Part shown: positions 10,801 through 45,237 of the stretch, one piece after another
How positions within the stretch are numbered: the stretch's first letter is position 1
Layout: each line of letters opens with the position of its first letter
Source of the DNA: Octopus vulgaris
Lineage: Eukaryota
Assembly (NCBI GenBank): GCA_951406725.2
Contig: OX597814.1
Location: 868,001 to 932,000, forward strand
Direction: 5' to 3'
Length of the DNA stretch: 64,000 nt
Program-made: the position numbers and the translations under genes
The notes under the pieces: generated by a model
What the model saw: only the letters and a program-made list of their open reading frames with translations
Told to the model about the DNA's origin: nothing
Database searches by the model: none

Positions 10801-13800
10801 GTGTATATATATGATGGGCTTCTTCCAGTTTCCGTCTAGCAGATCCACTCACAAGGCTTTGGTCAGCTCAAGGCTAGAGTAGATGACACTTGCTCAAGGT
10901 CCATGCAGTGAGACTGAACCCAGAACCTTTGGTTGGGAGACAAAGACGTATATACACACACACATACAAATGCACACATATTCACACACAATTACACACA
11001 CATAGACAAATATGCATGAGTGTATAAACACACACACACACACAGAAGATGGAGGTGAAATTGTAAAAAAAAGTTACCTCTCTGCCAGGTAATGGTAGCC
11101 GGGTCGATATCCAGGCGGACAAATTTGGTCATTTCAGCAGGGGTCAGTGTGGTTGGGTTTGTCTTGGAAATACCAAGTTTCTGGAGATTAAAGAAGACTT
11201 TGTTAAACTAGTGGATTAGCTGATGGTCAGCCTGTGTGGTCAGCAGGTGTTGGGACAGCCTGAGTGGTCAAGCAGTGATGTTGTTGTTGTTGTTGTATAG
11301 CCCCAGGTCAGCTCTGATTCAGCAGAGCAATGGTTAAAGCATTGCAGCTGTCACAATTGCATTGTTTTCATCTGCAGAGATCGTTTACCTAGGACTACAT
11401 CATCTAATGTATCATCCCATTTTAAAGAAGGGTAGGGTTTGATTTGAGGGAGATTTGGCTGCTATTTTTCCTGTAATCACACAGGTGATCCCTCACAGGC
11501 TCATGGTCAGTTCATGTGTTCCGCTGGTATGTCCAGTCAAATAGGGTGATCAGCTGTTGTCGTTAATTAGTGTGGTCATTCTCTGTGACCAGTTGATGTA
11601 GTCAGACGAGGAGGTCAGTTGCACAATCAGGTAAAACGATCAAATGACCAAACAAAGAAGCCTCTATATGGTTGCTTAACATGCTAGAAATAGTAGCCAA
11701 ATTGCAAATCATCACCTTTGGAAAAGGAAGAATATAATGAGAAAAGCAATATCTGGAAAGACTGGATGGTCATGACTGGAATATCTTTGATCATAGGTTT
11801 GGCTACTTGACCACTACTGTCCTAGTGTTAAACAGAAGGAATACACAGAAGATCAGTTGGTGTGGTCAGCTGACACAAGGCCGGATGCTTTTCCTGACCC
11901 TGAGCCTCACAAATGTTGAAAGTTTAAGAAGGCAGACTTTGTGATTTGAGGGGGATTTAGCTGCTATTTCTAGCATTGGTTGAAATGACGATGTCAGTAA
12001 CATCGTTAAAATAAATGTTCCTGTCTCACCTTTAATCTGTCGAGCTGAATTTTGGAAAATGCTCGTTTGCCTTTCTTGGTTGGAACGAGACGGTCGTAAA
12101 GGGCTTTGTCTGTCTGTGTGCTCTCATGGAACATCCGTGCATCGAGTTGTGCAGCAAGCAGGTTGTTGGCGGCAGTAATTGCATGGATGTCACCAGTAAG
12201 GTGAAGGTTGAATTCTTCCATTGGAATTACCTGAGAATAGCCACCTCCAGCAGCACCACCTAGTGGAAGAAATTAGAAAGACAGATATATATACAATACT
12301 AGCCATACCACCACAAAGACCCCACCACCACCACTCTTCCAACCACCAAGAACTCCACCATCAAGACCCCCCCCACCCTCCCCACCAAGAAATCCACCCC
12401 CAGAACCCCCACTAAAATCCATCCACCATCACCACCACCAAGAACTCCACCCCCAGACCCACCACCACCAACACCCCTCCATCCACCACCACACCACCAC
12501 CACCACTGCTGCCGCCGCCACGATGTGGCGTAGTGGAATGAGAACCCAGGTTCAAAATTTCCCCAAGACACCTGATGAAGGCTGGAGGGTATATCAGCCA
12601 AAATGTTGTGTTAAAAACAAACAAGATGAGGACAAATATCCTTTAAATGTGAATAATGTTCTTTTAGTTTCTGTTTACCACTTTCACTCATAAGGCTTTG
12701 CTTAGCTAGAGGTTATAGGTGAAGATACTTGGCCAAGGTGCCCTGTAGTGGTACTGAACCCACATCCATGTGACTAGAAAGCAAACTTCACAACCACACA
12801 ACCAAACCTGCAGCCTTCAACTAAAAATCTCAAATATGTCGGTGTTTTTCTTTTGAAGGTCAAAATTTTTCCAAAACCCTCAACCAATGAATCTGTTAAC
12901 CATCCCACCACCAAACCCTTCAACTTACCTTTTATACCAAAAGTTGGGCCTTGTGAGGGTTGCCTGACGCATGCAACAATATTCTTCTTCAAACAAGCTC
13001 CGAATGCCTGGGCCAATCCAATTGTTGTGGTACTTTTACCTTCTCCAAGAGGTGTTGGGGTTATTCTGTACAAGATAACAAGGTTTAATTAAGCATTAGG
13101 GTTTACAAAAGCTCAAGGAGGGGCCCAGGGTATTATTTTTGTTGTTTTTTCATAAATATTTTATGTGGCTGGGTTGGTTTATTTTTACTTTAAAAACTGA
13201 ATGCACAATCTTCACATCGTTAACCCCTGACCTGTGAAATGGGGGAAAGAGAATTGGGGCCTGCTTTGTGGTTTAATTAAATAAACTGAAATGGACAGTG
13301 CTAGGAACATTGCCCAGGGGTACAAGGCCATAGCATCGTCATTGTCATAATCATCATCCTTAACATCACCATCATCATCATCACCAGCATTATCATCATT
13401 TTCTTTGTCATCATTTTCCTCAATGTCACCACTGTTGTTATCATCATCATCATTCTCCTCCTCCTCATCATCATCACTGTCATCATCAGTCTTCTTCTTT
13501 TCCTCCTCATTATCACTATCATCATCATCATCATCATTATTGTTTTTATGTCTGTTTGCTATGCTGTCATGAGTTAGAGGAGACTTACTGAGATCATGTT
13601 TCTATGGCTAGATTCTCTTCATGCCACTAAACATTGTATGCTGTTTAATTACAGGATTTCTGTTTACTGGAGAATCATCATCATCTTCATTTAACATCCA
13701 TTGTCCATGCTGGCATGAGTTGGACGGTTTGGAAGGCTGCACCAGACTCCAGTCTGGTTTGGCAAGGTTTCTACAGCTGGATGCCCTTCCTAATGCCAAC

Positions 13801-44812: not shown

Positions 44813-45237
44813 CAGTTCTATATTTAAGAGATGAGGAATTATTTATATTATTTACATTTGACGGATATTTGTCCTCATCTTGTTTGTTGTTAACACAACG
44901 TTTCGGCTGATATACCCTCCAGCCTTCATCAGGTGTCTTGGGGAATTTCAAACCTGGGTTCTTATTCCTAAGGTATTTTTCGATGTTATTATTAACTTAT
45001 GCCCATGGTTAAGAGCACGTGCTACTAACCCCATGGTTCTGAGTTCAATTCCAAGCAATGGCTTGAATAATAATAATAATAACAACATCAAAAAATACCT
45101 TAGGAATGAGAACCTAGGTTTGAAATTTCCCCAAGACACCTGATGAAAGCTGGAGAGTATATCAGCCGAACATTGTGTTAACAACAAACAAGATGAGGAC
45201 AAATATCCGTCAAATGTAAATAATGTAAATAAGGTAA
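44813..45237. mobile_element. Head-to-head dimer of the tRNA-hammerhead element
   Basis: Inverted arms, imperfect TSD ATGTTTTG(A/G)TC (44802-44812, 45238-45248); the minus arm carries the intact ribozyme. Confidence 0.8.
44892..44937 (-). ncRNA. Minimal (Penelope-type) hammerhead ribozyme, intact core
   Basis: Minus strand reads GACAC-CUGAUGA-A-GGCUG(GAGGGUAUAU)CAGCC-GAAA-CG-UU-GUGUU: stem I GACAC/GUGUU, full CUGAUGA and GAAA core, 5-bp stem II, palindromic ACGU in place of stem III. Confidence 0.8.

What the first reader, a model, noticed from the sequence alone, without database searches (positions are those of the whole stretch)
12524..45237. A tRNA-headed 'ribozyme SINE': Pol III promoter fused to a Penelope-type hammerhead and tail
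Seen: a ~280-bp element at 5 loci (12524, 14839, 29209, 33453, 44813). It has a tRNA-like head (consensus TGGCGTAGTGGTTAAGAGC..CTACTAA..GTTCGATTCC), an (AAT/AAC)n linker, a hammerhead GACAC-CUGAUGA-A-GGCUG..CAGCC-GAAA-CGUU-GUGUU and a fixed non-poly(A) end (...CCTCATCTCTTAAATATAGAACTG). There are 8 ribozyme copies; the one at 44892-44937 is intact and the others carry core or stem lesions. Established: minimal hammerheads with a short palindrome instead of stem III are characteristic of Penelope-like element (PLE) pLTRs and are thought to act as dimers. Classical SINEs instead borrow LINE 3' tails. Inference: this is a non-autonomous, Pol III-driven element mobilised by a Penelope RT/GIY-YIG rather than by a LINE, a SINE/retrozyme hybrid I do not recognise as described.
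Basis: partly seen in the sequence, partly recalled or inferred. Interest (0 to 1): 0.85.

Follow-up and report, generated by a model that had tools for sequence, protein, structure and literature searches.

The report
Penelope retrotransposon with tRNA-type promoter
The supposed 'ribozyme SINE' is the terminal repeat of a protein-coding Penelope retrotransposon with a tRNA-derived promoter motif built in; because the element also avoids T-run stop signals, it is likely transcribed by RNA polymerase III, which would be unexpected for a self-mobilising retrotransposon.

Summary
It is not a separate SINE family. It is the pseudo-LTR of a Penelope/Poseidon-type retrotransposon of this genome. In 20 of 20 fetched endonuclease ends the tRNA head starts 29 nt after the ORF stop. 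In 19 of 20 ORF starts the 'fixed tail' runs straight into the RT ORF, so hammerhead and tail are the ORF's N-terminus. Short copies (about 23,000 loci) show Penelope signatures: inverted 5' partners (29 of 49), two 3' ends about 35 nt apart, no poly(A). They share all variants with ORF-linked copies. The unusual part is the tRNA-Arg-like A/B-box cassette inside the repeat. 5' ends pile up at its start (12 of 15, p about 1e-9). One full 2.6-kb copy has no TTTT (about 6 expected); none of 21 other long Penelope ORFs lacks it. Best reading: a likely Pol III-driven Penelope whose run-off cDNAs look like SINEs. Pol III use and ribozyme cleavage are untested, and RT fold-back at a 5' palindrome is a serious rival. 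Promoter-plus-hammerhead repeats are already known from schistosomes.

The parts
29210..29489 (+). Only full-length pLTR unit in the window (unit positions +1 to +285). It is a passenger inside a larger composite repeat, not an independent insertion.
29217..29227 (+). A box of the tRNA-derived head
29260..29271 (+). B box of the tRNA-derived head
29354..29400 (+). Minimal type I hammerhead with A15.1 lesion; lies inside the start of the Penelope ORF frame (ATG at unit +122, window 29325)
12524..12659 (+). Internally deleted copy: A-box fragment (12526-12536) fused to +119..+243; hammerhead 12567-12612 with GAAA to AAAA
14837..15010 (-). 5'-truncated copy (about +80..+240), damaged hammerhead about 14912-14958
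15594..15694 (-). Head plus (AAT)n, inverted partner of the next part; junction is a fold-back palindrome at the head start.
15707..15892 (+). Copy +93..+284, damaged hammerhead
33452..33680 (-). Inverted partner, head to +243 (short 3' end)
33686..33818 (+). Copy +119..+285; the pair is flanked by a 13-bp target duplication (33440-33452 and 33820-33832)
44813..44994 (-). Copy +93..+284 (long 3' end)
44892..44937 (-). Intact minimal hammerhead: 5-bp stem I, CUGAUGA, extra A, 5-6-bp stem II, GAAA, palindromic CG; predicted cut at unit +191
45006..45239 (+). Inverted partner +16..+256 (short 3' end); the pair is flanked by an 8-bp or longer duplication (44802-44809 and 45238-45245)

Best explanation
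The window holds scattered terminal repeats (pLTRs) of a Penelope/Poseidon-type retrotransposon that carries a tRNA-derived A/B-box cassette just after its stop codon and is likely transcribed from that cassette by RNA polymerase III. SHOWN: the element is pLTR - single RT/GIY-YIG ORF - pLTR. The pLTR is ORF stop, 29 nt, tRNA-Arg-like head, (AAT)n, ATG (+122), hammerhead (+151..+196), ORF N-terminus ending at +285 or about +250. INFERRED: in a tandem master, Pol III starts a few nt upstream of the head in the upstream pLTR and, meeting no TTTT, reads through the 2.3-kb ORF. The protein nicks AT-rich DNA on both strands and primes RT at two internal sites inside the ORF start, as shown in vitro for anole Poseidon (PMC11167929). 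RT that starts in the first pLTR runs off the RNA 5' end after about 285 nt and gives a sharp-edged SINE-like copy. RT that starts in the last pLTR gives progressively truncated ORF-bearing copies. Two primings on opposite strands give the head-to-head pairs with 7-15-bp duplications. Solo copies lack the ORF sequence downstream of the priming site and would mostly be dead ends. The hammerhead is predicted to cleave only as a dimer or with protein help; its role is unresolved.
For: Identity. 20 of 20 fetched endonuclease-end hits run into the head at one junction. In 19 of 20 ORF-start hits the tail is contiguous with the ORF. L163 is a complete copy with RT (PF00078, E 6e-8). L181 reads in frame through hammerhead and tail, and that peptide aligns with the N-terminus of a distant Penelope protein, P0169 (45% over 260 aa, E 4e-67). 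The RT groups with proteins lacking the linker Zn finger, apart from Neptune. PLE insertion signature. Inverted partner at the 5' end in 29 of 49 independent copies, at the 3' end in 0 of 49; 24 of 29 partners end at +242..+264 against +282..+285 for main copies. The same two ends show as loose-end peaks in reads and contigs. Duplications of 7 nt or more flank 18 of 25 inverted units vs 4 of 20 single copies (p 8e-4). Pol III, indirect. A and B boxes fit the recalled consensus while the acceptor and T stems no longer pair (and the sequence). Of 30 copies chosen only on their 3' 163 nt, 15 reach the head and 12 of these stop at -7..+9 (p 8e-10). TTTT count is 0 in 2632 nt of L163 (expected 5.7; P 0.003 mononucleotide, 0.007 dinucleotide, 0.016 synonymous-codon shuffles) and 0 in 1871 nt of L181. 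Neptune ORFs of the same genome have 4-8. 0 of 21 other Penelope ORF stretches of 1800 nt or more, and 2 of 59 of 1200 nt or more, lack TTTT. 14 of 20 tRNA genes here have a T4+ run within 22 nt downstream.
Against: No direct evidence of Pol III. RNA-seq reads of a related-label organism lie equally on both strands, follow copy number and show no start or cut site; library strandedness is unknown. The head start coincides with a small palindrome that can make cDNA fold back, so the pile-up need not mark a transcription start. Of 20 ORF-start copies only 1 has a 5' pLTR beginning at the head; 2 pass it into the endonuclease and 17 are cut downstream, so some templates began further upstream. 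5 of 9 copies examined do hold TTTT runs (9 runs). Eight are private to one copy, but one site is shared by 2 of 4 copies. The T-run test rests on few long copies and is helped by a mild TT deficit (o/e 0.85). A and B boxes are no better conserved among copies than the rest, as expected for dead copies, so this is uninformative. Pol III is said to be too weakly processive for autonomous elements (PMC10886601 passage), and an uncapped RNA whose ATG lies upstream of the ribozyme cut needs an unexplained route to translation. No intact ORF among 6 long copies.
Confidence: 0.58

Rival explanations
1. Ordinary Pol II Penelope with a passenger. A tRNA or SINE head inserted once into the 3' UTR and hitch-hikes. 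Short copies are normal 5'-truncated PLE ends, and RT stops or folds back at the palindrome at the head start.
For: Solo pLTR and hammerhead fragments and opposite-strand pairs are normal PLE debris (PMC4209133, PMC8557442). Many 5' junctions are palindromes centred on the head start. 2 of the 3 upstream pLTRs that reach the head run past it. No discrete RNA start.
Against: Does not explain the absence of TTTT over 2.3 kb of ORF, nor the loss of the T-rich tract that 9 of 14 other families have between ORF end and hammerhead. Several copies stop at -5..+3 with no inversion.
Confidence: 0.32
2. One reading: a self-standing non-autonomous SINE, derived from this pLTR, whose solo copies are transcribed by Pol III and mobilised in trans by the Penelope protein.
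For: Solo copies far outnumber ORF-linked ones (27 of 30; about 6:1 in contig depth in related organisms). They have a sharp 5' end and A/B boxes. One solo copy was re-amplified (11 loci), though as DNA cargo of another repeat.
Against: No diagnostic site; shared polymorphisms at similar frequencies; 31 solo and 20 ORF-linked copies intermix in a poorly resolved tree. No 3' transductions or SINE-specific tail were seen. The anole protein needs RNA downstream of the priming site (PMC11167929), which solo copies lack.
Confidence: 0.08
3. A classical SINE that borrows a LINE 3' tail.
For: tRNA-derived head, about 285 nt, high copy number.
Against: The 3' end is the N-terminal coding region of a Penelope ORF. 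An A6 run follows in only 1 of 49 copies. 5' inversions and two 3' ends are PLE features.
Confidence: 0.01

Closest known systems
Penelope/Poseidon clade PLEs, e.g. anole Poseidon PAc (PMC11167929; PMC8557442)
   Same: Single RT plus C-terminal GIY-YIG ORF, no linker Zn finger, pLTR with minimal hammerhead overlapping the ORF start, two RT start sites giving a 30-40-bp tail, inverted 5' partner copies, AT-rich targets.
   Different: The pLTR holds a tRNA-derived A/B-box cassette and an (AAT)n linker, and the sense strand avoids TTTT. Neither was seen in the other Penelope loci examined.
Schistosome SM-alpha / Sj-alpha SINE-like repeats (PMC6765202 and PMC8490949 passages; original papers not read)
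   Same: Pol III promoter followed by a type I hammerhead in a short, high-copy repeat.
   Different: Described as non-coding, often tandem, with a canonical hammerhead and no known autonomous parent. Here the unit is dispersed, has a minimal hammerhead and is the terminal repeat of a coding element.
TRIMp3 elements Cassandra, Helenus, Ajax (PMC10886601 passages)
   Same: Small-RNA-derived Pol III promoter inside a terminal repeat.
   Different: Those are short non-autonomous LTR elements, and that paper expects autonomous partners to use Pol II. Here the carrier is a non-LTR PLE with its own RT/EN ORF.
Non-LTR retrozymes as PLE derivatives (bioRxiv 10.64898/2026.07.22.740005; PMC7761336)
   Same: Hammerhead-bearing short repeats homologous to pLTRs.
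   Different: Retrozymes are head-to-tail tandem arrays. Here copies are single or head-to-head, and no tRNA head is mentioned in the parts read.
R2 retrotransposon (PMC6765202 passages; uncapped translation recalled)
   Same: Analogy only: a ribozyme-bearing autonomous element expressed without its own Pol II promoter.
   Different: R2 is co-transcribed with rDNA by Pol I and uses an HDV-like ribozyme.

Membership tests
Penelope/Poseidon PLE | Single ORF with RT and C-terminal GIY-YIG/CCHH endonuclease | tested here: met
   RT PF00078. The endonuclease was picked up by a PLE profile and shows the conserved Cys/Tyr/His pattern; Pfam GIY-YIG itself did not score. All long copies are broken.
Penelope/Poseidon PLE | No Zn-finger linker between RT and EN (unlike Neptune and Nematis) | tested here: met
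   the tree has no named reference element, so the clade call rests on this feature as worded in PMC8557442
Penelope/Poseidon PLE | pLTR: same sequence upstream and downstream of the ORF | tested here: met
   (L163, L181-L200)
Penelope/Poseidon PLE | Minimal type I hammerhead in the pLTR (extra base after A9, G10.1-C11.1, palindromic 15.2-16.2) | tested here: met
   features from PMC4209133
Penelope/Poseidon PLE | Inverted 5' partner and 30-40-bp tail | tested here: met
   29 of 49 vs 0 of 49; 24 of 29 partners end 20-43 nt short
Hammerhead ribozyme | Self-cleavage | not testable with these tools
   No pile-up of read ends at the predicted cut, but that library cannot settle it
tRNA-derived SINE (SINE2) | tRNA-derived head with A and B boxes | tested here: met
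   E 2.6e-6; best of the isotypes sampled are Arg(TCT) and Arg(TCG); Ser, Leu, His and others were not in the sample
tRNA-derived SINE (SINE2) | Independent non-autonomous lineage, distinct from its partner except at the tail | tested here: not met
   The whole unit is shared with the autonomous element; no diagnostic sites
tRNA-derived SINE (SINE2) | LINE-derived 3' tail, poly(A) or simple-repeat end | tested here: not met
tRNA-derived SINE (SINE2) | Transcription by Pol III | tested here: inconclusive
   Indirect support only; RNA-seq uninformative
Non-LTR retrozyme | Head-to-tail tandem units with hammerheads in each | tested here: not met
   Neighbours are head-to-head; same-strand tandem pieces in only a few of 60 loci, e.g. 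L020, L026
Non-LTR retrozyme | Abundant circular RNA | not tested
   No suitable library was available

The most novel reading that the evidence does not exclude
An autonomous, protein-coding retrotransposon that captured a tRNA promoter, purged Pol III terminators from its 2.6-kb body and is expressed by RNA polymerase III, shedding tens of thousands of SINE-shaped run-off copies: a snapshot of a SINE being born from inside its own autonomous parent.
Probability: 0.45. Interest if true: 0.85.

Novelty: new variant of a known kind. Interest (0 to 1): 0.62.

Why it matters
If the Pol III reading holds, it goes against the stated expectation that autonomous retrotransposons must use Pol II (PMC10886601). 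It would give a natural case of a 2.6-kb protein-coding Pol III transcript and a testable route to uncapped translation around a hammerhead. It would also offer an origin for SINE-like repeats that needs no LINE tail, possibly including the schistosome promoter-plus-hammerhead repeats. Even if it fails, the case shows that a high-copy 'tRNA SINE' in a repeat library can be a Penelope terminal repeat. It also gives genomic support for two-strand priming in PLE insertion: target duplications go with the inverted form.

Tried and rejected
Rfam and ARAGORN at default settings do not see the head or the hammerhead; relaxed ARAGORN is noise. The dominant GIY-YIG family of the genome (Neptune type, 781-aa frames) was tested as partner and rejected: no shared tail in the 30 loci or at the Neptune elements of 10 wider stretches. 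The top hits to the 29210 copy were partly one insertion re-amplified in a composite repeat; those 11 loci were left out of the end, inversion and duplication counts. No free SINE family with this head and another body was found in 664 kb; only weaker tRNA heads of other SINEs. No Penelope ORF remnant in the window itself. Viral contigs hold no relative. Sequencing runs: no RNA holder listed; the laid RNA-seq shows no start, end or strand bias. Earlier findings of this scan: nothing. Covariation within the family is not informative because copies decay neutrally, so it was tested across families instead. Ten literature searches found no PLE with a tRNA-derived promoter. Repbase, Dfam, SINEBase, subscription papers and supplements were not seen, so an existing library entry is possible.

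Full report
OBSERVATION. The repeat is present at all five named places and at a sixth, 15594-15892. Aligned to a family consensus there are nine pieces, eight with a hammerhead. Only 44892-44937 is intact; the others have the lesions listed in the observation check. The window lies in a 2.8-Gb animal genome. I guess a cephalopod from its size and from recalled SINE features; this was not verified. A search gave 5899 candidates, 40 scored. Sixty 10-kb stretches taken at round coordinates held 5 loci (9 fragments), about 23,000 loci genome-wide, CI 7,600-54,000. The window is therefore locally rich.

HEAD AND RIBOZYME. Rfam and ARAGORN miss both. A profile from 20 tRNA genes of this genome hits the head only (E 2.6e-6). 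The closest sampled isotypes are Arg(TCT) and Arg(TCG) (z 8.0 and 6.9); several isotypes were not sampled. By inspection the A and B boxes fit the recalled consensus while the acceptor and T stems no longer pair, so this is a promoter-like cassette, not a tRNA gene. The hammerhead has the features given for metazoan PLE minimal hammerheads in PMC4209133. Across 15 other Penelope families plus this one, stem II pairs 2-5 pair in 60 of 64 cells (shuffle mean 39, maximum 49 in 5000 shuffles) and stem I pairs 1-3 in 15, 12 and 12 of 16. Those families were picked by a core pattern and one is out of register.

THE PARENT. The abundant Neptune family does not share the tail. A PLE profile, however, found endonuclease remnants just upstream of the head in two of my loci. 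Searching with that piece gave 2885 candidates. I fetched 20 of the 40 scored, and all 20 run from the ORF stop through 29 nt into the head; one is cut after 15 nt by another sequence. L163 is a whole element: inverted pLTR, truncated pLTR, ORF with RT, endonuclease, pLTR. Searching with the ORF start gave 433 candidates; of 20 fetched, 19 have the 'fixed tail' directly contiguous with the ORF. The frame opens at an ATG at +122, runs through the hammerhead and tail (seen unbroken in L181), and aligns with the N-terminus of a distant Penelope protein. The RT clusters with proteins lacking the linker Zn finger, apart from Neptune. This matches anole Poseidon, whose ORF overlaps the hammerhead and whose RT starts at two sites inside the ORF (PMC11167929).

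INSERTION ANATOMY. Eleven top hits, including the window's 29210 copy, are one insertion re-amplified within a composite repeat and were excluded. Of 49 independent copies, 29 have an inverted partner at the 5' end and none at the 3' end. 24 of 29 partners end at +242..+264, main copies at +282..+285. Shared flanking words of 7 nt or more occur in 18 of 25 inverted units with a tail-type end, 0 of 4 with short partners, 4 of 20 single copies, and 5.7% of mismatched pairs; a few lie in AT microsatellite. The pair at 33452-33818 has a 13-bp duplication. An A6 run follows only 1 of 49 copies, and 3' flanks are 75% AT vs 64% background. This fits priming on both strands of a staggered nick (inference).

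A SEPARATE SINE? 31 solo and 20 ORF-linked copies share the same polymorphic sites at similar frequencies and intermix in a poorly resolved tree. The few nominally significant sites reflect that solo copies were selected for similarity. Non-CpG divergence is 4-7% and CpG about 25%. An intact hammerhead pattern survives in 5 of 31 solo and 1 of 20 ORF-linked copies. None of 6 long copies has an intact ORF, so the family looks old. No independent SINE lineage is detected in this sample.

IS THE HEAD A WORKING POL III PROMOTER? For: among 30 copies selected only on their 3' 163 nt, 15 stop between +15 and +109, 12 stop at -7..+9 and 3 continue into the ORF (binomial p 8e-10 against the upstream stopping rate). 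That is where a type 2 promoter would start (recalled). The sense strand has 25 T3 runs but no T4 in 2632 nt of L163 (P 0.003, 0.007, 0.016 under three shuffles) and none in 1871 nt of L181; Neptune ORFs have 4-8. Of 80 Penelope loci from metagenomes, 59 had 1200 nt or more of ORF: 2 lack T4 (both with under 2 expected), and none of the 21 with 1800 nt or more does. Some loci are near duplicates. The tRNA profile found no cassette after the ORF end in those loci while detecting it weakly in L163 and L182; an A/B pattern found none in 29 checked. Against: the head start is a palindrome at which cDNA can fold back. Only 1 of 20 upstream pLTRs starts at the head and 2 pass it. Nine T4 runs occur in 5 of 9 copies, one site shared by 2 of 4. 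RNA-seq of a related-label organism (about 6% of two runs) mirrors copy number on both strands with no discrete ends. Translation of an uncapped RNA is unexplained. I put Pol III use of the head at somewhat better than even, and full Pol III expression of the ORF a little below that.

PRIOR WORK AND WHAT I SAW. PMC11167929 and PMC4209133: parts 1-2 of 4 (main text). bioRxiv 10.64898/2026.07.22.740005: parts 1-3 of 5. PMC13282606: parts 1-2 of 3 (no such element described). PMC8557442, PMC6765202, PMC8490949, PMC10886601, PMC7761336, PMC8967140: passages only. Ferbeyre 1998, Laha 2000 and Ohshima and Okada 1994: titles in reference lists only. No supplements were read. Promoter-plus-hammerhead repeats (schistosomes), Pol III cassettes in terminal repeats (TRIMp3) and solo PLE hammerheads are all known. 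Ten searches found no autonomous PLE with a tRNA-derived cassette. Repeat databases could not be checked.

VERDICT. It is a new variant of Penelope rather than a new class of SINE. Identity as a pLTR is close to certain; the Pol III mechanism is inferred. Interest 0.62; 0.85 if Pol III expression of the autonomous element is shown.

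Noticed in passing
window 28990-32100; L001-L006, L008, L010, L014, L018, L023: A composite repeat made of a decayed LINE-like RT remnant, one inserted pLTR copy and a long degenerate tandem array (window 29888-32100) recurs at 11 or more loci at 90-96% identity. 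Its mobiliser is unknown; Helitron-like or foldback is a guess.
   Followed up: partly
L091-L095 (e.g. L093:960-5500): A young Neptune-type PLE family with many intact 781-aa frames. It has a separate upstream frame of about 350 aa overlapping the RT frame start, a repetitive 3' region, and no hammerhead found by my pattern next to the ORF. A two-frame layout would be unusual for PLEs.
   Followed up: partly
window 33452-33818 and 44813-45239; L007-L060: Target-site duplications of 7-15 bp go with the inverted (two-ended) insertions and are mostly absent from single copies. This is genomic support for two-strand priming in PLEs.
   Followed up: yes
L181:204-2074: An internally deleted Penelope copy (about 1.9 kb) with pLTR ends and a long intact N-terminal frame; possibly a non-autonomous derivative.
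   Followed up: no
window 40888-42424: A young tandem array with a unit of about 47/94 bp, 91-96% identical copies.
   Followed up: no
window 28465-28685, 32820-33040, 58720-58785: Other tRNA-headed SINE families with different bodies; their heads are only weakly similar to the pLTR head.
   Followed up: partly
L245:2195-2241 and L246: A tRNA-like sequence with its own T-run lies about 200 nt upstream of a truncated Penelope ORF in an unrelated metagenome contig; it is not inside the pLTR.
   Followed up: partly
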